NCBI GenBank assembly: GCA_963924565.1
Contig: OZ004608.1
Span: forward strand, 36,146,001-36,210,000
Length of the DNA: 64,000 bases
Direction: 5' to 3'
DNA from: Ascidiella aspersa
Lineage: Eukaryota
Shown here: positions 64 to 61,856 of the stretch, one piece after another
How the letters are laid out: each line of letters begins with the position of its first letter
How positions within the stretch are numbered: the first letter of the stretch is position 1
The notes under the pieces: model-generated
What the model was told of the DNA's origin: nothing
Seen by the model: the letters and a program-made list of their open reading frames with translations, nothing else
Databases searched by the model: none
Position numbers and translations under genes: made by a program

Positions 64-3000
64 CCGCAAAGGGAAATGGTCGACCCAAAACCTCTCGCGA
101 ACATTTTCCCAGCTCTTCAGTGAGAACAATTCACCAATATGCGCTTTCCTGTTTTCCAAATCTACATTTGCCCACTTCTGGATGTGACTTAGAGCAGATT
201 CCTCTGATTCAGCCTAAAATGATAAAATAACAAGTCAAGTCAAATAAGAAACGCAAAAACTTACCTAAATATGTCACCTTTTAATGGTTTAAAGTGGTTG
301 TCAACCTGTACTAGACGTATTCCATTTTTATAGTGGCTCGTGAGCTGCTTTTAGGTCTTACGCGGATTGTACAAAATTAAAAAAAAAGTGTAATATTATA
401 ACAGCTTTGGAGCATAATGGTGGGAGGTTGTAATGTAGCAATAATTACTACCCCATATAGAAGTAGCATTCTAAACTTGGTAAACAAATATTTTATTCGA
501 AACGTTCAAAATGATACCTATGGGCATCGATATTTTTATTACGTATATAAGAGCTGTGGTGGATTTTATTCTCTATTTGCTAGTTTGAATCGGCCTAAAG
601 TCTTAAATCTGCGGCTAGAGCTGGAGGTAATTAGAATTCATATTTAACTTTATTTGCAAAAAGTAAAATTGTTTCTTTAGAAGCCAGGTGGTGGACACAC
701 ACAAAGTTAATAAAACCACCAGTAAAACAAAAAAAGTTGTACTGGCAGGCGAGATAGAACTAGCCTAGTATTATTCGAACAAATTAATGTTCTGTCCAAC
801 GCACCTGGTGTGCTATACTGTTATAAAAACGTATGTCGTTACGGTTGGCCAGTGTAACTTTAAGAAAATAGCTCTCAGTCAACAAATCATAATAAAAATC
901 TGTTTTTATTTGAAGTCAACAAACTATATTATCTCTCGCAGAGTTATTTCTACCTGCCAGCGTATTTCCTTTAAGAAAAAACAAAGTGTAGTTAAAATTC
1001 TGCCGGATGCAATTCAAAACTAAATTTTTATCAAATTTTAAACTGTACGACAACTTGTCCCATATTCGTTTAGACTTTGTTTAACGATAATTAAGTTGAT
1101 CAAGTTTTGTATCCTGCCCGCGATGATCAGGCCTTGCTTTTTGCCCTTCAAGAAAATCGTTTGGTGATCCCTGGTTTATGTCGAACGGTTTACGTTTCTA
1201 CAGGCTTTTTATATATAGCTTAAGGAAGCGAAGGAAACTATGTAGCACAATGGCTGGAGGTTGTAGTAAGACGTAGTAAGTACATCAAAGCCCATACTGA
1301 AGTAGGTAGCATTTTGCACGTTTTTAATAAATTGTTTTAATTCATTTTTAACATAAAAGGAAACTGTAATCAGTAACTAAATACACCTACATTGTCAGGA
1401 GTTAGCTCTACAAGGGCTTTAATTGATTCAGATTCCAGCGAGGCAATCGTCTCGTCGTCTTTAAGAATAGGAAAATGCAGTCTTATAAAAGCAGCACATC
1501 TGTCCTCCACCATCTTGAATCCACACTTCCTGGCGTTTGACCATTTCTCCAAGCAATCAGTCAGCCTCAGCGCTGGCAGAATGCACTTGCAACATCCCTC
1601 CTCTAAACCTAAACAGTTTTCAGTTTGTAGATGTTATGTGTGTGCGAGGTTATTACCTAAGAATATGCTTTACATTTGATTGACATGCAGAACCAAACGG
1701 GTGACGGTCAACTCAAAAAATCATTAAAACAAATTTAACCAGACACATGACAGCAAGCTTGGACTATAGTTAACTATAGATAATTCTATTTTTTTGATTT
1801 GATTTAGTGAAATCTAACTTGTAAATTGCTCGTCTGCGCTAATTCTAGTTCTAATTTATTTGGATTTGACTTAAAATGCTACTTTGGTCAACGGTATTTT
1901 TAGTCTATAAGACAGAATTTAAATTATTACTCTTCGGTCGGAACGACTGCTAGTCGACTTTCACAGTTTAAAAGGCATAAGTTACGCTAAAACGTATAAA
2001 AATTAGCCCAGGATAATAGAATTACATGACATTTACATATTTACGAGAATAAATTTTCTTAAAATTCTAGGTTAAATTTTAAGTTTGAAGAGCTCGGGAA
2101 TTCTAAGTCTAATCTTATTTGAGAAAACCAAAATATTCTTATTCTGAACTAATTCGAAAAAAACTAAAAAATAGTTTTTCAAGTCTGTATGGCAGAGCCC
2201 TGCCCAATGAAAGTCTTAAAGAATATGCTATTTACGATGTACTCAGGCCAACGCGAATATTTACGTTTCAAGGTCAAGGCTATTATAATGTTAGTAGTTT
2301 CAGTAGGCAATTTGACATCTAGTTGTCTTGTGGGTTGTGGCTTTTAGCATGCACGGTTAACTATTAAAAAACTAACAATATATCCTATCATATGGTTAGT
2401 TTGGTTCGTTCGTATTCTCACTGCGTAGTTTCGAAATACGGTTACTAACTTGGGATTAGAAAGTAGTTGGCTGCTGCATAAACATCAAATACGCTTTCTT
2501 GGTCGATCTTAATTTCACCAGTGTAAATAAAATCCAAAACGGTCTCCAACTTTTCAGCACTAACTCCAGTGATTTCGAAACTCTCTTGATATTTTTCTGA
2601 CATCTGAAATGTATTTGCGCGAAATCATTACAGTTTGACGCAGTATAGAACTAAAATATTTTTCTGACATCTGAAATGTATTTGCGCGAAATCATTACAG
2701 TTTGACGCAGTATAGAACTAAGCAAGCGTAATGGTGCAAAGATTAACTATATTCCCTTAAAAACAACTAATTAAAAAAATGCTTTTTACCTCTGTAGTAA
2801 ACATTGTTTATTGAACTGTGCGTTGTTCGTAAAATGTGCGAACCGAAATTCGTTAAAAATTGCATGAAATGAATCCTTAAGGTACATCGACATTTGTTCA
2901 CAAAATAAATTGTTTAAAAAAAACTTTTAGGTTAAAATACTTTACCTCTGTAGTAAACATTGCCTCGAAAAACTTGGAAGCCGATGCAAGTATTGTCTTG

Positions 3001-3308
3001 TGAACGGGGAATTCCCTTTCGTCACATATCAGTTTCGCGTCGGTCATTTTCTTGGCATTCGTTCGGTCACTTGAAACATAAATGTAATAGCTATGCTTTG
3101 ACCCTTTATGTCAGAAAAAGTAGACAAGTTATTCGCAAGCGTTAATAGTTAACCCTGCTTGCTAATAAACTAATAGTATTTTTCACACTGAAAGCCACAA
3201 ACCACAATGAGATAAATATACTTTAAATTGCCTACTTAAACTACTGAGTTACCTGTTTAACCAAGCCATCATAGCTGTATTATGACACTCTTTTGTAGAC
3301 GAACTCAT
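64..3308 (-). CDS. BTB/BACK (Kelch-like) protein, paralogue 1; 5' five coding exons, 3' part continues beyond the left edge
   Basis: Exons 3253-3308 (MSSSTKECHNTAMMAWLN), 2946-3069 (MTDAKLICDEREFPVHKTILASASKFFEAMFTTE, BTB motif), 2450-2603 (MSEKYQESFEITGVSAEKLETVLDFIYTGEI), 1391-1608 and 64-213 (BACK region). All are GT-AG and phase-compatible. Exon lengths (56/124/154/218/150) are identical to paralogue 2. Confidence 0.88.
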
Positions 3309-38500: not shown

Positions 38501-41500
38501 TTCAGCCCCGTAGTACATTTCATCAAAACGCTACAACGCAAGTGGTTCATATTTACAAATGGTGAGGAGTATGTTAACGCTACTTATAAGCGTGTAGTTT
38601 TATTTTGCCGTTTTTTATTGTAACAAAAAAAAAACAATGACCAAGTTGTGTGCTTGAACCCGTGGTTGGTAGTTTTGCTTCGTGATTGTAAGATCAACGT
38701 TGACAGGGTAATCGTTCTGTTTTATTTGTGTGCTCTTTGTAACAAAAAAAACTAACGATAAATGTATCAAATGGCTGTAGGTTTAAGTAATTCTCTTTAC
38801 TTAACTTAAGAGAATTAGCTTCTGCGCGTCAAAAAGCACGCCAAAGCTTTATGATTGTTACAGACATTCGTGAAAGATTTATTTAAATACGTGACTGTAA
38901 TATAATTATTTACTTAGATTACTAAATGCTCTTTTCTTCAAAACGAAAAATGTCTACTGTTTTACGCGACTAACAGGCACAATAGATCGATATTAAGCAG
39001 ATGTCATTAGTCTATATTGTGGGTAATGAACTTGCCATACTTGTGAAATATTCAATGTTAATAAAAAAGTGAAATATTCAACATTAATAAAAAGCAATCG
39101 CCGAACTTAGGGCATTTGTTATTGTTGCGATCTCTTAGTGCCTTGGCGATTAAATAACAAGTTGCCATTTGAACTCACGAATGCGACTTATTTTAAACCG
39201 CATGAGCAATCAGACAATAAATTGGGTGAGATTTGAACCTTTGACCTTGGGAATACACAACTACCGGTAGCTGTGAATGCGTGTTCATATCTGCACACCA
39301 GGGCCAAGTGTAGTGGATACGATATATTGTTTAATAACACAAAATAAGATGACAAATCTCACCTCCCAAGTGACAACCAGCTGGCCTGGCTTTCCCCCAC
39401 CACCTGAAACTCCTGAAGGTGATGCAACCGGTGCTGGGAAGAAAAGGAAGGTTTTAAGCACATCTTACTACAGTGATTCCTCCAACATTTACTATACTAC
39501 AGTGATTCTCTCTCCAAGTGCCTTTCGTTGTATTTCAAATAGGCATGAATATACACTATCCATTACAAAACTGATAATATTAGTACATTTATTTAGTGCC
39601 TTACCATGTATTAAGTGCGATTCTTAAGTTATAAAATCGTTGTTTTATAGAAATTGTGCCGCCATAGTTTTTAATTTTTTATTGTGCCGTAAGTTAAAAA
39701 ATGGCTTTCTAGCTCAATACGTTTAAAATTGTTACTGAAGGTAACTTTTCGCACTTCCAAGAACATTACGCCATTAATTCTTAGATGCGTTGTCTTTAAA
39801 CCCCGCCTACCAAGGTTAGGTACATAAAAGTTTATTTTTGTATTTAAATGTTACTGCTTTTATTTGATTTTTCCTAATAAAGGTCCTTTCACGCGACTCT
39901 AAATAACAGTAGCTGTTCAGTTATCGACACGACCCTCTAGTCTATTTGAACGTAGCCCTAGGTGCGACAATGGTGCGTTTTCAGGTTTTAACCGTAACAA
40001 ATTTAACTAACAATAGTTTTTAGCGGTTTAACGCATTTTGTGATGACTTGGGTTTCTGACATTTGCTTTACAAGATTTCTTCAAACGGACGAAACTTTGA
40101 TTCTTTATAATTGTTTTTAATTTAATTTTCGTACATTAAGTTGAAATTACAGATAAAGAACACTTTTCTTGAAGAGCCTAATCATACCTCCAGCTGACGT
40201 TTTTTGTGGGGTGCTAGGTTCACTTCCCTCTCCCCTTCCGATCTTGTTCCACGCGTAAACTGTGTACTGGTAGTCGTTGTATGGCAGGAGACCTTCAACC
40301 AGACACGAGGTCACGTTTGTACTGCACGCCACCACCCAATCATCACTGAAGCCATTCTTGCAGTGCACCTGTAAAACATAAATCGTATTATATGTTAAGG
40401 CTAAGGGGGATAAAGATACACACAGACATATTTCTTCAACAAGTGTGATCTAGCTCTTCTAAATCTGCTTATTGACCAACGATTACGGCTTACGTATTAT
40501 TAGTACGCCGCAACCATCGCACAATCAACGAAGCTGTCTAGTACAATCAACTTAATATTGAAGGGGATCTACAGTACCGTATCATTCAATGAAAGATGCG
40601 CACACATGTGTTTAATAAAAACTGTGATCTAGCCCCCCGGAAGCTGCTTATTGACCAACAATTACGGCTTACGACAAAATGTAGCAAATATTGGCGTATG
40701 GTTGTTTCTCGACTCGTTTCCCTCTGAGCCTATAGCTTAGTTGGTAGAGCCAGGGATGACCGGAGGTCGTGAGTTCTAACCTCACTGCAGGCTAGTTGTT
40801 TTTCTATCCTTCCCGGCTTGCATCAATGATCGACAGATTCTGCGATGGCTTTCAGTGTACTAATGAGCCGTAATCGTTGGTCAAAAAGCAGGTTCAGAAG
40901 GGCTAGATCTCAGTTGTTAACACACATATTTGTGTACATATGTTTCATTGAATAATTGATATGGTGCTGTTGATCCCCTTTAATATGAAGTTGCTTGTAC
41001 TGATTGAGCAAGCATTGGCGTATGGTTGTTTCTCGACTCGCTCCCCTCTGAGCCTGTGTAGCTCAGTTGGTAGAGCGACGGTCCCGGTATGAACGGAGAT
41101 CGTGAGTTCGAACCTATGTTTTCTAGCCTGCTCTGCTTGCATAATTGATCGACAACTTCGCTTAGTCTGCGATGGTTTTCGTTATGTTAAAGGCCTATTG
41201 TTGTTAAGTGTGGCAAATTTTGTTGATAAAAAAATTTAAAGATCATACTTCAAGACCAAATCAGCTCATCATGTTGTGATACGCATTTTGTATGAACGCT
41301 TGGTAAAATGGTAAACAAGCTAACATATTATCTGTTTAGATTTTTTTAGCAAAGCGTTAGTTTCTTTATATCGTTATTAGGCTATGTGGTGTTTGTGCGA
41401 CTCTAGGCAAATAAAATGGAAATGGCTAAAAAATATAACAGTGTTTTCAGCAGTCGTGCTTACATTTTGTGCTTTACTTTAATAAATACCCTTTAGAAGT

Positions 41501-44500
41501 GCAAAAATACATGCAAGTAAGCATGCAATACTTCAATTATAACTCATACCATTATGTTATTTAACTATCGCCTGACCATGTTGTATAAAAATGTAGAATA
41601 TTTTTTTAAAGTCATTTTAACCTCGTATTTCGTCACAGGAGCCCCATTGTCCTCAGCCGCTTGCCACGTGACTTGCTGGGAGGTGGAAGGAGCAGAGTAG
41701 GGTGGAGTGATTGTGACGTCATTAGGAGCGCTCGGAGGAGCTGGAGAAGCCACGTGGTTAGTTAGAATTGCTTATTGGATCTATCTGGTTTACTCACGAA
41801 AAAAAAAAATAACGTGCAACTTTATGGATGGAAACTGTGTAATGCAATATTTGTTTATTTATGGCTGACAAATGAACTGACAAAGAACTTTAACCGTAAT
41901 GTTCAACGCATACGGTATATATAATTGAGATATGGGCAATTTTGGGTTCAGGTGGTGGACATTTTAAAGCGCCCGAAGCGCTACCCTATACACATAAACT
42001 TTATAATTAATTGACTTACTGAAAATCAAAATCAAGCGAGCTTTTGCCCTTTTGCTCTACGCGAGGTTTCCGTCCTCACTGAAGCCCACCTTAGGACACC
42101 TGCGTTACTCTTTGACAGATGTACCGCCCCAGAATACAAACCGCGAAAGCGTGGCCTATCGATCCTTTTAATTGACTTAAATATAAAAAAAAGTCTTAAA
42201 ATTGTGGTAAAAAGTATTTTGACAATGTAGAAGACAGCAAAGATTGAAAACCAATGTTGAAAAACAACTCCTTAAGCGATCCATACAATGTTCTACACTA
42301 CAACCTCATAACAGCTAGTTTAGTTTATGAGATCGAATTTTATTGTGGAGTTTCTTTTGATCTCTCCATTGGCTGAAAAAACGTGCCAATTTCGGCGCTC
42401 TTTCACTATTGTACGTAAAAATTAATAAAAAAGAAATTTCTTCAAATGCCGCATACCACAACACATTGTTTGGGTTAGGTTGGGGTTAGCATTTGGTTGA
42501 GGGTGGGTCAAGTTATTATTAATAATAAACATAATATTACTTGACCCACCCTCACCCAAACGCTAACCCGCACCCTAACCCAAACAATATGCGTTGTGGT
42601 ATGCGGTATTATTATTATTTTTTTTTGCATAACTTTTCACGTACAATAGTGAAAGAGCGGCCCAATTTCCACTTACCTAGCACACTAACGTTGACAGATG
42701 CGCAGTCTGAGCCGACTTCTGTGCTGGCGCAACAGGCGTAAGTACCTGTCTGTTCACCTTCAACGTCCATAAGCTGTGTGTATTTGAAGGGTGTTAAACG
42801 GAAACTAAAGCTATGTTCGTTACAGTTTTGCGTTGCAGACTTAGAGTATCGAAACGAACCATATAATAGAAAAAATGAATTAAAAAAAAAACTTATTAAG
42901 GAGTCAAACAGTAAAAAGGAGTCAAACAATAAAAAAGTGTATTTAAAAATACAACACAAGGTAATGGATTACTGACTAATTCAATGAGAGCTTTACTAAA
43001 AGTAAAGACTATAGGTCACGTAAGGCAAAATAGTAGATATGATATAAACCTGAAAAATTAGCGAAAAACATTGCCACTAGTTTTCCGGATTTAGAATTAG
43101 ACAAATGCGACTATTAACAAAGATAGATAGTCAAACCTAAATGTGCGAATCTCAAGTTTCCATATATGGTCACCATGAGATCACACAAATTTCTACCTAA
43201 TCGTAATGACGACATAAGTGTTGTGAACAAGTCTGTCCAAGTTAAGTCTTTTCGCTTCTAAGTCAAGTCTCAACTGCAAGTTAAGTCTTTTTGAATAAAT
43301 AACAAGTCAAGTCCAAGCCACCAGTTGCTCAAGTCAAGCAAATAATAAAGCAAGTTAACTCCAAGTGTAAACCAATAAAAAGTCCAGTCTAGTCATTTCT
43401 CCAAAAGAGTCGAGTCAAGTGACTTTTCACAAAAGACTTTCGTCAAGTCATTTGTTAAAAACATTGACTGAAGTGCACTGAAGTCATGCCTTTGACTTAC
43501 GTCATTCCAATAGTACTACACAATATACCAACTTAAACATCACGCACCTTCAAAGAACCTCCCTGGTTTGCGTAATGTTCGTCCCTGATGACCAGTTTTC
43601 CATTTTGTGTCCATTTCCATGTAACCACGAGGTTGACGTCATGCGACTCCGAGCATTCAAGGTCAACCGCGTCACCGAAGGTCAAGTCAATGTTCTCCAA
43701 CGGGTATTTCGTAATAATCGTTGGCTCTGCGCCAAAGTCACATTTAAATCTGCTTTTTCATAAAAGAATTTCATAATGAAAAAAATCAATGCGCCTTATA
43801 GTTGGAACTTCAGTCGAAGAACATCAAACATGTTGCAAAAAGCTTTATTTTAAAATAAAATGCTGACCGATGGTTTATTTCTTGTCTTAAGGCAATCCAA
43901 GTATCATTTTTTTGTAAGTTTTGACAAGAATACCGATTTTTTTCGTTCTGTGTTTTTGATTTTAAACTGGAAGCAAAGAACGTTCAGTAGAAATGTAAAG
44001 ATCAACCTCCTTTTGTGAAACATCTTCCTTTTCCTTGCGTTTAACGTTATTTTCCAAGGTTTGTTAAACACCTTGTTTGTGTGGGTATTCTCCTATAGAG
44101 CCCTTTGTTACCACCAGGTGTTTAAGCACATCGTAAACTATTCTGATTTTGCAAAGTTGCCTCCAAAATAGCAGTTATAATTGTTACCGTAGCGTAGTCT
44201 ACTCACGATAAGCTTGCAGATAGGTTTGTCCATCCACACTCCCGAGTATGTTGGTTGCATTGCACGCGTACTGCCCCTCGTCTGAAATATCCACGTTCTT
44301 CACAGTAAGGCTCCCGTCATTACCGAAAGAGTATCTGGAAAAACATGGCGTTTTGAATAAGGGTGCCTCAGCTTGTATCATCGTTCAGTTTGTGATGATT
44401 TAATATAACAAAAAATTGTGGAAATTGGAAAATATACTTGGGAAATGTTAGGCTGTTCTGACAAGTTACAGTTTAGTAAAAAATTGCAATTCACATAATA

Positions 44501-47500
44501 TTGTTTAAAACACTTTGTTTTGCAAGAAGTGTGCAGTGATGGTGCTGAAAAAAGTTCAAGAACCTCTGGCTTAGATTTGGAGCATGCACTGGTGTGAAAG
44601 TTTGACAGTACTTTTGATTACGTTAAAATTAAACAATGTTAATAGTAATGCTTAAAGATTTGTAAAACTTGAACGCAATGTTGCCCTTTACTGTAAGAAC
44701 TTTGACATTTTCATTAAGTTAGATTTCGGTTATTATTCGATTCAGTTCTATTTCAATGAAATTACTTTGGGTTATTTTCGATGCTCATCTGATCTTTTGT
44801 CCACGTAAACGTTGGCGCCGGGGCTGCTGTGACGTTACAAGGGATGATGACGTCATGGTTGATTGCCGCTTTTGTAATGTCGTTCATCTTCGTCACAAAC
44901 ACGGGTGGCGCCGCTGAGCAAAATGGAGAATAACATACATTGGGAGAAAGCATATTTCTTGCGTTTGTTTCTAGTTGTGTAAAAAGGATGGATGGGGCAT
45001 ATCCGGCCAGATGTCAATTGGGGCGTCATGGTCGAATTTTTTTGAAAGTTTGGTAAAATTTTGGAACAAAAATTTTGGAACGTTTTTCACGATTGACAGT
45101 AACGTTTTTTACGATTGACATAGTGTCGTGCCACGAGACAACCTGGTAAAAAAGCATACATGCCTTTATGCCAGTTTTAGTCCTCTTGACAAATTAGAGA
45201 GGCCATTCTACTTGTACCAATGGCCAATACAACTATAGGGAAATTTTCCAAAACAACATTTATTGCCTTTTATACGTGCAAATCAGTTCATTGTGCTTGG
45301 TAATTCAAATTTTTTTGGTGTGTCATCTGACTAACAGCACACTCCCATATGATAACTATGACCCACTTAACCTATTGCTTAATCTTACTATCAACTGTAA
45401 TCTTGTCTACCTTTCTTAAACCTTAGTGCGCTTGACAATCCAGAGGCTCTTATAATAGTAACAAAAATCGAACTTACATCTGACAACTTTGATGTGGTTT
45501 CATATAGCGATTAGTAAATAACTATCGAATAGTTTTTTTTTTGTTAAATTCAGTTTTAAAGCGCTTGACAAAACAAAGGTTCTTACGTTAGCGTTATCTC
45601 AACAAAACACACACTCACATCTTACGACGATACGCGCGCTCGAGAAGATGGTTCCCTGATCATTGACAGCTTCGCACTGATACATCCCAGTGTCCCCTTG
45701 ATCAACCGAGTAAATGTACAAAGTACTTCCTTCGACGTCGTTGCTTATCTGTGTCTTCCCGTTGCTCCCTTGAGTAAGAGAAACTCCGTTCTTCATCCAG
45801 AGGTAGGACGCAGGAGGAACGGCTGCTGCCTCGCAACGGAGGGTAGCTGTCTCGGATTTGTCCACCATTGTTGTAGTGATCTCCCTAACCCATTGCGGTG
45901 CATCTGAGTGAAATAAAGCACAATCTGATTTGGAAACAGTATACGAGTGTGGTAAGAAAATATAATTTTTTTCCCGGCTGGCGAAATAAGTGCGGAACAT
46001 AAAGGTTTTTAGTTTTTTGAAATGATATACGCTTCCCTTTAAAATAAATTGTTTTTCCGTATTACATTTTTTTTCTATGTTCTGACTATTCTCACACGTA
46101 TCCAAAACAATACTGTCAAAGTGGTGCTAAAACACCCACTAGCTAGTTTACCTTGTCATTCCAAAGCAACCTGTGCTTCCATGTAGTTATAATGGAAAAT
46201 TTTAATTAATTTTCATCTTTCAGAAAACATAATTACAAACCATGGGTTTTTCCCAATCCTTAAGCAATGTTGGATGTTATTTTAAGTTTCAATTCTTGTC
46301 AAGTATCAGCTTTCCCATCATATCTGTGTAATTAAAACTGACCAGGCAAGACGGGGCAGTGACTTAATGGAACGCCTGGAATTTTGGTTACATATTGACT
46401 TGGAGATATCTGTTCGTCGAAATCGACCAAAGGTTGAGTTTAACTCGTCACGTACATGATTTCGTTATCATGGATTTTACAAAGACACTGGAAAGAGTTA
46501 CGTGATGTAACTGGCTTAAATCGTTTGTTCCTTTTTCCAGGTTCATTATTACGCAAAAATATCTTTCAATGTTCATAATTATATCTAGGTTTTGGGCAAC
46601 GATTATTAAGAGACTGCTTTGATGACCATTAGGAAATTGTAATGACCATTAGGAAATTTGTAAGGCTTATGCTCCAGTTGTTTTAAAGTAGATGGCGGTT
46701 GTTTTTCCTACGAACTGCAATTTGGCAAGTTTGATTTAATGTCACGAAATATTCGATGTTAAAGTGTTGCAAAATCAAACGATTAATTTACACATTGTCT
46801 GTTATTTCTTACAGTTTTTTTAAAGGGCTGAAAGTACCACGGAACTCGACAATTTAATTTGCAGTTAAAAAATAGTAAAATCATGTCTAAACCTGAACGA
46901 GTTTTTAGTGCTGACGTAATTGTTGCGTTGGTTTGTAACAGACAAAGTCAACATTTAGTAACTCGTTAAACGATCGTTGGCCTTTCCAAACAAATCCACA
47001 CTGTCTGTCTGTCGCAATATTTCGCAATATGTATTTTAATTTTAAACTACACCTACCGGCAAAGGATTATTTATAAGGCTTGAAATTTGTTTTCTGTTTT
47101 AAAATTTTTACTATATGTTAAAATATTTTGTTAGCGTCTTAAAAACATCTTAACCAAAAATTAGATTTGACACCATGTTTGAACAGCGTTAGTAAAACTG
47201 TACAACGGACATGTTCTACAGTGTAAACACTGGTAAATTAGATATTTTTTATACTCTCCAGTCTTGGTCAAATTTATAAATTCTAGTCATTTTAGAAAAT
47301 ATATTTCGTCACAAAATAAGGCAGCATCAGTAAATCTTGATTTGAAATTAAGAGATTGATGATGCCTTGTTTTGTGGCGGAATACATTTCTTGTTTGAAA
47401 GACTGGAACTTATAAATGACTGACTTTGACCAAGACAGGAAAGTCTGAAGAATATGTCCCATTTGAAGTCGTTGTCGTCACGTGTAAGGGCGAGGAGAAA

Positions 47501-59500: not shown

Positions 59501-61856
59501 ACTGAGTAAAACATTTACAGATTATTCGAGGCAGTGGAATACAAACCAATCAAGTAAAAAGTAAATTTGACTGAACAAAATAACATTAAATGCTGTTTTA
59601 TCAAAAGGTGCAAACTTCTGGGCTGGTATAGACATTTTTTTTCACTTATATCCAGATTATTATATTTTGTATTCAGGGGTGTATCCATATTTTTCGTCTG
59701 GGGTGCATAAAATGTTCAGGAATGATGTAACAAAGTTACGTCATAACGTGATGTACTAATACAATTATTCCCAAAAACAACTGTCCTGGGCGAACTCTTG
59801 CGCAAAATGTAGGTGAAAAGAAAGGTGTAGTGTATTGTAGATGCAATCATTAATATACATGTTGACTCTAACAAACACTCGCTCGGTACGCAAATTTGAA
59901 ATCACAGCCTTTTAGTGAATATACTATTGCTGCCAGGCATTGTTTCAATTCCAAAATTGTTCTTTCCATCAAAATTCATGTTTTGGTAAACCGATAAAGC
60001 ACTTAAGGACATTTCTAAAAAAATAAACAAAATATGCGTAACTCGCATGATTTTTCTTTTTTAGCCAAGCTAAACAAAACGGGTGTGATGCCTTATACTG
60101 TGTAATTTATACCCATATCGAGACCTTTGCTCTATTGAGCTACACAGGCTCATAGGGAGCAAGTCGAGAACCAACCTAAAATCTGTTGCCTGCATTCTGT
60201 TCGTAAAACTAACCTGTGGTGAGATTCGAACTCACAACCTCGGTCATATTTGGACCGTCGCTCAACCAACTAAGCTACACAGGCTCAGAGGGGAGCAAGT
60301 CGAGAAATAACCATAGCACCGTTGCCTGCTGCATCGTGTTTGTAAAACTAGCCTAAGGTGAGGTTCGAACTCACGACCTCCGATCATACCGGGACCGTCG
60401 CTCTACCAACTGAGCTAAACAGGCTCATATTGCAACAAGTCAAGAAACAACCATAGCACCGTTGCCTGCTACATCCTGTTCATACAGTAGCTCAGTTGGT
60501 AGAGCGGTATGACCGAAGGTCGTGAGTTCAAACCTCACCACAGGCTTGTGTTTCTAGCCTAACTTTCTTGTAGTATAACCCTGATGAGACTAACTGATCT
60601 AGGTAAGCCTCTTAGAAGGCATCCTGTTCACTTCTGTAACTACAGCAGTTTCGTTAAATATGGTTATTTTTACACACAAAAAAAGTTGCGATCTCTTACA
60701 GTTTTCAGTGGACGACAAAACCAAAACCTTAACAAACACGAAAAAAGCGTGTTAAAGTGTACTTACATGCGAAGATAAGTTTCCCGTAGTTGCTGACTAC
60801 TACGCCTTCATCACTTTTTACCACGCACTGGTAATCTCCTCCATCACTTGCTTGGGGCTGCGAGATCTGCAGAGTGCCACCGATCACTTTAAACCGGCTG
60901 TTTTCTGTGTTAAAAACATAGCGAGTGGCGCTTAGTTCTAAACATGGTGTGAAATACAGTTGAAACCCCCCAAAAAATTTGTGCTAAAATTACAAATAAA
61001 ATTGAATTTTTAGAACACAATTTTTTTTAGTAATTTGAATAAAAATACGAAAGCCAATATATTCTATAAAAACGAAATTGATGGATTAAAGAATTTTTGT
61101 TTATGTTTTATCCCCACAGTTTAGCTTTCTGCCAACAGAGGGTATTATTTTTATTTAAATATAAAAGTTTAGTAACTATTTTTCGCAATTGAACCCCGTT
61201 AGCTTATTTTACCAACCTCAAAAAGCTTAAAAAATTCCCTAAATATTTGCGTATGAAATTATAAAGCTACAAATAATAATTTCTTCTTCTGGCAAATAGT
61301 TCAGTAACCAGATGAGAAATGTGTTCTAATAAGATCACGCTCGAGAAAAATAATGTTTTCTAATAAGATCACGCCTGAGAGTTGCTTACACCCTCATTCA
61401 GAACTTAAGGCCCCTCTTAATTTAGATGGTCACTTGCAACAGTTATTTTGATTTGCGTTATTAAATACAGTTTGTTTCTGTCAATTAAACTTCGAAAAGT
61501 CCACAATTTACACCAAATAATATAAATCAAAAACAGATCCTCTGGTAATTTTAATTCTTTGCCAACGTTTCGGCAACCTGTTCAAGCCGCCTTCGGCTTT
61601 TCTTTCCATTTATTGTACGAGCGTTCAGTGTCATTACCCTGACGAAGGCGGCTTGAATAGGCAAAGAATTAAAATTACCAGAAGAGCTGTTTTTGATTTA
61701 TATTACGCCAAATAACTTTACCTGGTAGAGGCTGGTCATTCTTTCTCCACGAGTAGATCGGTGTATTTTCAAGCTTCGCTTTGCACTGGAAGGTTATCTG
61801 CGCCTTGGAGTCGAGAGGTACGACTTGGTCGCTTGGCTCGACCTCGAAAATTCCAG
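32501..61856 (-). CDS. CNTN: Contactin (GPI-anchored Ig-superfamily adhesion molecule, 6 Ig + 4 FnIII); signal-peptide exon not found in window
   Basis: 21 phase-compatible GT-AG exons: 61722-61856, 60767-60904, 52811-52906, 51646-51876, 49129-49225, 48267-48445, 45619-45903, 44766-44913, 44207-44334, 43548-43726, 42677-42773, 41622-41740, 40188-40368, 39363-39433, 38354-38530, 37373-37481, 36161-36270, 35722-35869, 34339-34502, 33694-33868, 32501-32601 (about 1020 aa). Ig DxGxYxC motifs are present, with the contactin-typical FN2 motif VSGGGGKPGQLVVTW. The C-terminus GTSSKYGGKATHLSLNVSLLFLICFTILKAWLN* is a GPI-type hydrophobic tail with no cytoplasmic domain. Confidence 0.93.
32784..33298. 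mobile_element. hAT (Charlie/Buster-like) MITE
   Basis: TIRs CAGTGGTTGTCAAACT / AGTTTGAGAACGACTG; perfect 8-bp TSD GGCTAAGC. Confidence 0.88.
36651..36859. mobile_element. Fold-back MITE with degenerate GGGTTA-like arms
   Basis: Long inverted repeat TGGCGGTGGTCTAGAATCC...GGATTCTAGACCAGCGCCA. Related copies lie at about 16629-16832 and 42394-42661. Confidence 0.7.
37599..37917. mobile_element. hAT (Charlie/Buster-like) MITE
   Basis: TIRs CAGGGTTTCTTAAACT / AGTTTAAGAACCCCTG, subterminal GGACCCC motifs, TSD ctttaaat/ctttacat. Confidence 0.82.
40410..41180. repeat. Composite inverted-repeat element containing two tRNA-derived units (40728-40792, 41052-41116)
   Basis: The arm GATCTAGC..CTGCTTATTGACCAACGATTACGGCTTACG occurs twice directly (about 40440, about 40620) and once inverted (about 40860-40930); another copy is at about 50445-50540. 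The internal units have A box TAGCTCAGTTGG and B box GTTCGAACC. Confidence 0.7.
42017..42169. pseudogene. 28S rRNA-derived insertion (two adjacent 28S segments, the 5' one inverted) in a contactin intron
   Basis: 42017-42132 is the reverse complement of conserved 28S CTGGGGCGGTACATCTGTCAAA..GCAGGTGTCCTAAG..AAAAGCTCGCTTGATTTTGATTTTCAGTA. 42132-42169 is the next 28S stretch in sense (GAATACAAACCGCGAAAGCGTGGCCTATCGATCCTTT). The insert is flanked by the direct repeat TTAATTGACTTA. Confidence 0.9.
42394..42661. mobile_element. Fold-back MITE with GGGTTA-like arms
   Basis: Ends GGCGCTCTTTCACTATTGTACGT / ACGTACAATAGTGAAAGAGCGGC; direct repeat CCAATTTC on both flanks. Confidence 0.8.
43217..43505 (+). 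repeat. AAGTC-pentamer-rich dispersed repeat (MITE-like), same family as 47850-48238 and about 53870-53985
   Basis: Begins AGTGTTGTGAACAAGTC and carries many AAGTC/CAAGT units. Confidence 0.6.
47242..47455. mobile_element. Old inverted repeat carrying two degenerate hammerhead ribozyme cores (Penelope-like pLTR relic)
   Basis: Plus arm TTGATGA-T-GCC-ttgttttgt-GGC-GGAA-TACATT; minus arm CTGATGC-T-GCC-ttattttgt-GAC-GAAA-TATATT. The arms pair over about 90 bp. Confidence 0.55.
47850..48238 (-). repeat. GACTT-pentamer tandem-rich repeat (MITE-like) ending ACAACACTG
   Basis: Dense GACTT/GGACTT units with roughly 30- and 65-bp higher-order repeats. Confidence 0.7.
49709..50027. mobile_element. 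hAT (Charlie/Buster-like) MITE
   Basis: TIRs CAGTAGTTCCCAAACT / AGTTTGGGAAGCACTG; perfect 8-bp TSD ATCTAGAC. Confidence 0.88.
52008..52180. mobile_element. Near-perfect inverted repeat (Penelope-like pLTR relic) containing a hammerhead ribozyme
   Basis: Arms about 52008-52082 and 52105-52180; flanking direct repeat TGACTGAAGTT at 52000-52010 and 52184-52194. Confidence 0.75.
52060..52103 (-). ncRNA. Minimal type-I hammerhead ribozyme motif
   Basis: Minus strand reads GATTAA-CTGAAGA-T-GATAC-aagctc-GTATC-GAAA-GG-TC-TTAATC. This gives a 6-bp stem I, the CUGANGA core, a 5-bp stem II, GAAA and a UC cleavage site. Confidence 0.8.
56255..59337 (+). repeat. Tandem duplication of about 1.53 kb (copies 56255-57786 and 57787-59337)
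   Basis: Both copies start TTCTTGCAAGAGATTGGACG and end CAAAAGCAAATA. They are near identical, with a few SNPs and small indels. Confidence 0.95.
60125..60560. repeat. Cluster of tRNA-derived repeats: about 140-bp tandem units on minus (one partial, two full) plus one inverted unit
   Basis: Cloverleaf-like units at 60212-60284 and 60351-60424 (minus) and 60488-60546 (plus), with pol III A/B boxes but non-canonical, variable anticodon loops. Confidence 0.75.
61518..61705. mobile_element. Inverted repeat (Penelope-like pLTR relic) with a hammerhead ribozyme split across the two arms
   Basis: Plus arm CC-CTGACGA-A-GGCGGCTTGAATAGGC (61637-61662); minus arm CGAAGGCGGCTTGAACAGGTTGCC-GAAA-CG-TT-GG (61595-61562). 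Flanks are acaccaaataa/acgccaaataa. Confidence 0.7.

What the first reader, a model, noticed from the sequence alone, without database searches (positions are those of the whole stretch)
42007..42179. 28S rRNA fragment retroposed with a twin-priming-type inversion and a 12-bp TSD
Seen: TTAATTGACTTA (42007-42018), then the reverse complement of 28S segment A, then sense 28S segment B, then TTAATTGACTTA (42168-42179). Established: A and B are contiguous in 28S (..GATTTTCAGTA-N-GAATACA..). The geometry matches twin priming during target-primed reverse transcription: A's 3' end at the left TSD, A's 5' end joined to B's 5' end, about 1 nt lost, and 1-2-nt microhomologies at all junctions. There is no poly(A) tail. 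Inference: an internal rRNA piece was captured in trans by a retroelement RT, a mechanism mostly described for mammalian L1.
Basis: partly seen in the sequence, partly recalled or inferred. Interest (0 to 1): 0.72.

Follow-up and report, generated by a model that had tools for sequence, protein, structure and literature searches.

The report
Half-flipped ribosomal RNA copy, sea squirt
A 149-base piece of the animal's own ribosomal RNA gene sits half-flipped between two identical 12-base repeats inside a gene of a probable sea squirt, likely pasted there when a jumping-gene enzyme copied one RNA from both cut DNA ends at once; it is likely a dead one-off scar, but this kind of accident is described mostly in mammals.

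Summary
Real. A 12-bp direct repeat flanks 114 nt of reversed host 28S joined to the next 36 nt in sense. One base is lost, microhomologies are 2/1/2 nt, there is no A-tail, and the flanks are single-copy. The host is probably an ascidian. One public contig bridges the left junction and carries a variant there; the other junctions and an empty allele are unshown. Best reading (0.65): a tailless rRNA retrocopy made by twin priming. L1 is not the best suspect: its family here has 13-20-bp TSDs and 0 of 27 inverted copies. A GAA-tailed LINE (2 of 26 inverted, median TSD 11) and Penelope-like elements (head-to-head arms, TSD about 12, two start points 25-39 nt apart) fit better. The insert's two priming points lie 39 nt apart. 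A second insertion here captured U2 snRNA two-sidedly. The main rival is cDNA snap-back (4-bp inverted repeat). The scan noted rRNA retrocopies and twin-primed Penelope or Vingi copies before, on other DNA, but not this combination. New variant of a known kind; no function; interest 0.42.

The parts
42007..42018 (+). Left copy of the target-site duplication; its last 2 nt (TA) also match 28S
42019..42132 (-). Segment A: inverted 28S piece, LSU 2901-3014 (114 nt); its RNA 3' end faces the left repeat and lies in a hairpin loop of the Rfam consensus; differs from the array at 42086; variant T at 42019 in runs X19 and X21
42132..42132 (.). Inversion junction, 1-nt microhomology (G); 5' end of A joined to 5' end of B; unique in the assembly
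42132..42167 (+). Segment B: sense 28S piece, LSU 3018-3053 (36 nt with the shared G); differs from the array at 42139; no A-tail
42168..42179 (+). Right copy of the target-site duplication; first 2 nt (TT) match 28S, with a gapped match of 8 nt
40147..46126 (-). Context: FN3-coding frame (40147-40449) and Ig-coding frame (45599-46126) of a minus-strand Ig/FN3 gene; the insert lies between them, probably in an intron
   Evidence: exon structure not mapped with RNA

Best explanation
This is a single insertion of host 28S sequence, likely a tailless retrocopy of 28S rRNA made by twin priming, with a retroelement enzyme likely acting in trans on an RNA not its own. Shown: the order TSD, reversed A, sense B, TSD; A and B abut on the 28S; both target 3' ends have microhomology to the sense strand; no tail. 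Inferred steps: (1) an endonuclease made a staggered cut leaving 3' overhangs of up to 12 nt; (2) the bottom-strand end paired with UU(G)AA(C)UUGA in the RNA and was extended 36 nt; (3) the top-strand end paired with UA in a hairpin loop 39 nt upstream and was extended 114 nt; (4) the first copy stopped at the second primer, and the two cDNA ends were joined over one shared base; (5) fill-in made the TSD. The enzyme is not identified. My split, given this mechanism: Penelope-like 0.4, GAA-tailed (Vingi-like) LINE 0.25, L1 clade 0.2, other 0.15. No function is proposed.
For: Chance that two independent breakpoints abut within 4 nt is about 0.1-0.2%. Exact 2-nt microhomology is offered by 3.5% (left) and 4.7% (right) of LSU positions; the right primer's gapped match is in the top 69 of 5110 rRNA positions. 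The left priming site and the lost base are the last three bases of a terminal loop, and B starts at the first base of the helix's 3' strand; Noll et al. report priming at single-stranded regions. In-genome precedents: GAA-tailed LINE copies L266 and L269 are 5'-inverted with 12- and 9-bp TSDs and left-junction microhomology. RT plus GIY-YIG elements are present; 20 of 35 GIY-YIG loci show inverted repeats, and 12 of 15 examined have AT-rich TSD-like repeats of 9-18 nt with arm ends 25-34 (6), 77-81 (5) or 98 (1) nt apart. A short stub family has head-to-head arms in 28 of 45 loci and TSDs in 15 of 45, median 12. One such insertion (L173/L300) has U2 snRNA in both arms and an 11-bp TSD.
Against: The dispersed L1 family shows 0 inverted among 27 truncated copies and TSDs of 13-20 nt in 17 of them; the difference from the GAA-tailed family is not significant (Fisher p 0.49 as run on 2/29 against 0/27). 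Penelope-like arms overlap (palindromes), whereas A and B do not, and no tail-only arm was seen among the 45 stub loci (the search favoured longer arms). The best-preserved stubs give a spacing of 26-30 nt, below 39. The two inverted GAA-family copies have 2.1-2.5 kb between their pieces. The left primer's pairing beyond 2 nt is unremarkable (694 of 5110), and the right priming site lies in a helix strand. A's ends form a 4-bp inverted repeat that twin priming does not need (chance 1% exact, 6-10% with slack). At 42139 none of 122 X21 reads has the assembly's letter. It is one event.
Confidence: 0.65

Rival explanations
1. One-ended copying followed by snap-back. A single cDNA ran through B and A; its 3' end folded back on the 4-bp inverted repeat at the A/B border and copied B in sense; the single-stranded loop (reversed A) was opened at its base and joined to the left end over TA. 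The final order would be the same.
For: A's ends read A-CTG and CAG-T in 28S itself; 15 of 1480 alternative 5' ends would give this exactly, 149 of 1480 with 4 nt slack. Snap-back junctions are reported for R2-driven insertion (PMC11371274, passages). Hairpin centres occur in stub insertions L355 and L356 of this genome.
Against: Priming on the inverted repeat predicts that TAT is kept at the middle junction; it is absent and the junction has 1 nt of microhomology. The route needs an extra nuclease cut at the loop base. Plain snap-back duplicates sequence, and nothing is duplicated here.
Confidence: 0.15
2. DNA-templated break repair. A staggered break was patched by a repair polymerase that copied rDNA (about 848 units) or a displaced rDNA strand, with template switching; no retroelement enzyme.
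For: rDNA is abundant (848 matches). The coding region is about three quarters of the unit, so a hit in 28S is expected anyway. Orientation gives only one bit of evidence. No tail.
Against: Repair-type (class 2) templated insertions lack TSDs (PMC5110952, passages). The TSD length matches three retroelement families in this genome. Both ends copy the same sense strand and abut.
Confidence: 0.12
3. An ordinary uninverted retrocopy was inserted first, and A was flipped later by replication template switching between the short inverted repeats.
For: With the TSD's last bases the inverted repeat would be 5 nt (sequence).
Against: One breakpoint must coincide with the insertion's own 5' junction and 4 nt must be lost; the insert is young (2 of 149 differences), leaving little time for so rare an event (inference).
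Confidence: 0.04
4. Assembly chimera.
For: No listed record bridges the middle or right junction; X18 and X19 have no depth at 42218-42271 (the tool says a filter removes records and a hole proves nothing).
Against: The left junction is bridged by an X19 contig, and X19 and X21 share a letter at 42019 that differs from both the assembly and 29 of 29 rDNA units. An artefact would not be expected to build an exact TSD. The contig is 39.8 Mb.
Confidence: 0.04

Closest known systems
Tailless retropseudogenes (Noll et al. 2015, PMC5322556; abstract, passages, part 3 of 5, section 19 and supplement searches read; supplement file 1 not searched)
   Same: 3'-truncated ncRNA copy, no A-tail, TSD within 8-35 nt, target complementary to the RNA at the 3' end; ten 5'-truncated 28S cases listed in human.
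   Different: Reported from therians, the green anole and eight U2 cases in maize; attributed to L1. The word 'invert' occurs neither in the main text nor in the searched supplements. Here the copy is inverted and the host is probably an ascidian.
Twin-primed 5'-inverted L1 and mRNA retrocopies (Kojima 2010 PMC2912911, part 1 and passages; PMC11702581, passages; PMC4245944, passages; Ostertag and Kazazian 2001 not held, seen only as cited)
   Same: Tail-out order, pieces adjacent on the RNA with a small deletion, microhomology at the 5' and inversion junctions, TSD of 10-20 nt.
   Different: Those carry a poly(A) tail at the first priming site. [quoted passage not shown] Here both primings are internal, and the genome's L1 family shows none in 27 copies.
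Head-to-head insertions of Penelope-like elements with a 30-40-bp tail (Craig et al. 2021, PMC8557442, passages)
   Same: Inverted 5'-truncated arm joined 5' to 5'; two 3' ends offset by 30-40 nt (39 here); in this genome AT-rich TSDs near 12 nt; PLEs are said to move host genes in trans.
   Different: No PLE sequence in the insert, and the arms do not overlap, so there is no palindrome.
28S rRNA/LINE-1 chimeras (PMC13174262, passages)
   Same: 28S fragments enter insertions; antisense pieces are ascribed to twin priming.
   Different: Those join two RNAs and include L1 sequence (18 loci, 83% sense); here one RNA supplies both pieces.

Membership tests
Tailless retropseudogene | TSD of 8-35 nt | tested here: met
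   12 nt exact, 9-12 depending on how microhomology is assigned
Tailless retropseudogene | 3'-truncated RNA copy without oligo(A) tail | tested here: met
   B ends at LSU 3053 and runs straight into the TSD
Tailless retropseudogene | Target complementary to the RNA at the priming site | tested here: met
   2 nt exact; gapped match in the top 69 of 5110 positions
Tailless retropseudogene | Priming at single-stranded RNA regions | tested here: inconclusive
   left site in a terminal loop, right site in a helix strand
Tailless retropseudogene | Target consensus TT/WAAAAWW | tested here: inconclusive
   can be read TT/AATTGAC: TT/AA fits, the rest does not; the flank is AT-rich
Tailless retropseudogene | Made by L1 machinery | not testable with these tools
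   an intact L1-clade ORF exists but the enzyme leaves no unique mark
Tailless retropseudogene | Empty orthologous site with one copy of the repeat | not testable with these tools
   no relatives held; no paralogous empty site; no skipping joint among the 15 shown
Twin-primed 5'-inverted insertion (L1 type) | Inverted piece's 3' end at the 5' TSD, 5' ends joined | tested here: met
Twin-primed 5'-inverted insertion (L1 type) | Inner breakpoints within 1-10 nt on the RNA | tested here: met
   1 nt lost, at most 4 (standard)
Twin-primed 5'-inverted insertion (L1 type) | Microhomology of 2 or more nt at the 5' junction | tested here: met
   TA
Twin-primed 5'-inverted insertion (L1 type) | Poly(A) tail at the first priming site | tested here: not met
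   none
Twin-primed 5'-inverted insertion (L1 type) | Resident L1 family makes inversions and such TSDs | tested here: not met
   0 of 27 inverted (upper 95% bound 10.5%); TSD 13-20 nt
Penelope-like head-to-head insertion | Two 3' ends offset by a 30-40-nt tail | tested here: met
   39 nt; in-genome values 25-34 and 77-81, 26-39 for stubs
Penelope-like head-to-head insertion | TSD like that of the genome's PLEs | tested here: met
   median 12 in stubs (15 of 45 loci)
Penelope-like head-to-head insertion | Overlapping arms forming an inverted pseudo-LTR | tested here: not met
   A and B do not overlap
Penelope-like head-to-head insertion | PLE sequence or hammerhead in the insert | tested here: not met
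   all 149 nt are 28S; the only Rfam match over the insert is LSU rRNA
Vingi clade (for the GAA-tailed family L069, a candidate enzyme) | Single ORF, APE endonuclease plus RT, no RNase H | tested here: met
   1033-aa frame, Pfam shows endonuclease and RT only (definition)
Vingi clade (for the GAA-tailed family L069, a candidate enzyme) | RT phylogeny with named Vingi elements | not tested
   no named Vingi among 114 homologues; the clade name is recalled
Class 2 templated sequence insertion | No TSD | tested here: not met
   12-nt TSD present
R2 3' read-through copy | R2 sequence or R2 target site attached | tested here: not met
   insert lies 353-507 nt downstream of the R2 site and holds no R2

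The most novel reading that the evidence does not exclude
A Penelope-like reverse transcriptase twin-primed on host 28S rRNA in trans and kept its usual 30-40-nt spacing between the two primers on an RNA that holds no Penelope sequence. The enigmatic PLE 'tail' would then be set by the geometry of the protein complex, not by an RNA signal, and PLEs would be a source of tailless, inverted ncRNA pseudogenes in invertebrates; the U2-containing head-to-head insertion in the same genome would be a second case.
Probability: 0.25. Interest if true: 0.7.

Novelty: new variant of a known kind. Interest (0 to 1): 0.42.

Why it matters
The insert is most likely a functionless scar. Its value is mechanistic. 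Tailless retrocopies and twin-primed inversions are each described almost only for mammalian L1; here both appear in one event in a probable ascidian whose L1 family does not visibly invert. If a genome-wide set of such inserts shows a fixed 30-40-nt spacing, it would make the open question of how Penelope-like elements form their inverted ends and tails testable on foreign templates. The variant at 42019 also makes the insert a usable population marker.

Tried and rejected
Foreign origin: rejected; the insert is 147 of 149 identical to the host array. A rearranged rDNA unit as source: the junction 16-mer has one exact match in the assembly and two 1-mismatch hits, against 6 for the control pattern. 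R2-linked 28S orphans as source: four examined carry the array's letters at both diagnostic sites, not the insert's. Survey of dispersed rRNA pieces: two 18-mer patterns listed only 100 of about 850 hits each; in C1-C4 only this insert appeared, and 1.4 Mb of fetched, overlapping, repeat-biased DNA held no other young piece. This is too thin for a rate. U2 family search returned mainly the tandem array. Two other L1/Tx1-like families were low-copy and clustered, with no opposite-strand pieces in the hit tables. The stub family matched none of 35 GIY-YIG loci and no Rfam hammerhead, so it is Penelope-like by architecture only. Protein atlas gave only 'Chordata commonest'. Literature: 10 full-text searches showed no report of an inverted tailless rRNA copy or of twin priming on a host RNA in an invertebrate; subscription papers are largely outside the library, three key papers were not held, and one supplement file of PMC5322556 was not searched.

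Full report
1. Observation. The 12-mer lies at 42007-42018 and 42168-42179 and nowhere else in the window. An exact repeat of 12 or more bases abutting both ends of a random 149-nt cut arose in 0.02% of 20,000 draws. Between the repeats are 114 nt of reversed 28S (A) and 36 nt of sense 28S (B), sharing G at 42132. With microhomologies counted, A covers 28S 2175-2290 and B 2292-2329 of locus L073, so one base is lost. The host array has about 848 units; 29 of 29 fetched units agree here and the insert differs at two bases. The middle junction is unique and both flanks are single-copy. The insert lies between FN3- and Ig-coding frames on the minus strand. The best named relatives of a host ferroportin are ascidian (70% Phallusia, 62% Clavelina, against about 43% for vertebrates), so the host is probably a sea squirt.

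2. Is it in the animal? Four runs were laid on 41300-42900. An X19 contig crosses the left junction by 31 letters and has T at 42019; six raw X21 reads from five start places have the same T. An X18 contig is identical to the window but crosses by only 28 letters and may be the assembly's own source. So filled alleles exist on at least two haplotypes. Against: no listed record bridges the middle or right junction, X18 and X19 are empty at 42218-42271, and none of 122 X21 reads has the assembly's A at 42139. The tool filters human-like reads, and rDNA depth (about 240) is far below what 848 units would give, so these holes are weak evidence. No empty allele was seen among the 15 joints shown; 169 were not shown. 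This question stays open.

3. Anatomy. Both target 3' ends point into the insert and both copy the sense strand. The right end needs UUAAUUGA and the RNA offers UU(G)AA(C)UUGA, in the top 69 of 5110 rRNA positions. The left end has 2 nt only (694 of 5110). In the Rfam structure the left site and the lost base are the end of a terminal loop, B begins at the first base of the helix's 3' strand, and the right site is in a helix strand. The two priming points are 39 nt apart. Independent pieces would abut this closely in about 0.1-0.2% of cases. This fits the published signature of twin priming and of tailless priming.

4. Which enzyme? (a) L1 clade: family L061 is intact and young. Among 27 distinct 5'-truncated copies, after dropping duplicates and copies whose 5' end ran off the fetched DNA, none has an inverted piece and 17 have TSDs of 13-20 nt. 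In human and chimpanzee about 31% of L1 insertions are inverted. (b) GAA-tailed single-ORF LINE, L069, Vingi-like by recall: of 37 distinct loci one ran off the edge and 10 were near full length; 2 of the other 26 are 5'-inverted, with TSDs of 12 and 9; exact TSDs were found in 19 of 36, median 11. Their pieces are kilobases apart on the RNA. The contrast with L1 is not significant. (c) Penelope-like: RT plus GIY-YIG frames; inverted repeats at 20 of 35 GIY-YIG loci. I examined 15 of the 20, leaving out four that reached the locus edge and one short hairpin; 12 had TSD-like repeats of 9-18 nt (one mismatch allowed, AT-rich, so lengths may be inflated) and arm offsets of 25-34, 77-81 or 98 nt. 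A stub family shows head-to-head arms in 28 of 45 loci and TSDs in 15 of 45, median 12; 17 of the 28 short arms end 26-39 nt before the long arm, the best-preserved at 26-30. Craig et al. give 30-40 bp for the PLE tail. One stub insertion holds U2 in both arms. But PLE arms overlap and ours do not. I was led to PLEs by earlier AI notes and then tested the idea in this genome; the notes are not independent support. (d) R2 exists, with 28S-tailed orphans, but nothing ties it to this site.

5. Rivals. A's ends form a 4-bp inverted repeat in the 28S (chance 1% exact, 6-10% with slack). One cDNA could snap back on it, copy B in sense, and be opened at the loop base. This gives the same order but predicts that TAT is kept, which it is not (0.15). 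DNA-templated repair stays possible because snap-back removes the need for a single-stranded template, but such patches usually lack TSDs (0.12). Later inversion (0.04) and assembly chimera (0.04) are unlikely.

6. Comparison with the known. It works like a twin-primed insertion and meets the sequence criteria of a tailless retropseudogene that could be tested. It is not an L1-type inverted retrocopy in the strict sense (no poly(A); resident L1 not inverting) and not a PLE copy (no PLE sequence, no overlap). Tailless copies were reported in therians, the anole and maize; culture inversions only for L1 in human cells plus one Nimb-2_DR insert. Ten searches of the held library showed no inverted tailless rRNA copy in an invertebrate; three key papers were not held and one supplement file was not searched, so this is a limited negative. 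Earlier notes of this scan record rRNA retrocopies, an inverted 28S beside a LINE tail, a twin-primed Vingi copy and many twin-primed PLEs in other genomes, and PLE stubs in this genome; none holds all the terms of this finding.

7. Verdict. Real, young (about 1.3% from the array), single and probably functionless. A new variant of a known kind. Interest 0.42; 0.7 if a PLE enzyme set the 39-nt spacing on a foreign RNA (probability 0.25).

Noticed in passing
L173 1441-1728 (G000:C5 about 16,782,940-16,783,230): Head-to-head insertion with an 11-bp TSD in which both arms are U2 snRNA (1-97 reversed; 32-97 sense, sharing one variant) fused to the 3' end of a short Penelope-like stub; the arms end 53 nt apart. 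A second two-sided capture of a host ncRNA.
   Followed up: partly
L266 676-1770 and L269/L270 1156-1770: Two independent 5'-inverted copies of a young GAA-tailed single-ORF LINE; both inverted pieces start at element position 88-92 and run to or near the 5' end; TSDs 12 and 9.
   Followed up: partly
L300-L319, L355-L374, L260; also window 1241-1316 and 408-466: Short stub family (about 115 nt) forming head-to-head arms and 88-nt tandems, with two preferred end points; some centres hold foreign or hairpin sequence (L355, L356, L360). Autonomous partner not found.
   Followed up: partly
L139-L142 (G000:C5 7.43-8.39 Mb): R2-like 3' ends still joined to 520-700 nt of downstream 28S, outside intact rDNA units; one ends 13 nt from the end of segment B.
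   Followed up: partly
L061 (G000:C7 15.31 Mb): Young poly(A)-tailed L1-clade family with two open frames (E 6e-128 to human ORF2p), copies mostly 95-99% alike, TSDs 13-20 nt.
   Followed up: yes
L175 1506-1655 and L176 1476-1649: Dispersed U2 copies that begin at position 40-41 and end in A-rich tails, as if cut at the site used by U2-targeting retroelements (recalled).
   Followed up: no
window 42383-42672: High-copy palindromic element (depth in the thousands), MITE-like.
   Followed up: no
window 41054-41120 and 60136-60481: tRNA-like heads; the second is a 140-nt tandem with two Rfam tRNA matches, probably a SINE.
   Followed up: no
L320, L321 (small contigs C35, C11): GIY-YIG frames of a different type, one beside distant LSU-like sequence (73-77%); possibly an organelle or cobiont contig.
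   Followed up: no
L254 2175-3188: Old 28S orphan (81% identity, about 1 kb) just outside the rDNA array.
   Followed up: no
L065: 632-bp tandem array whose unit matches sequence beside two dispersed U2 pieces (L174, L176).
   Followed up: no
L062 8356-9999: Ferroportin frame open for 548 codons without a break, next to an L1 copy.
   Followed up: no
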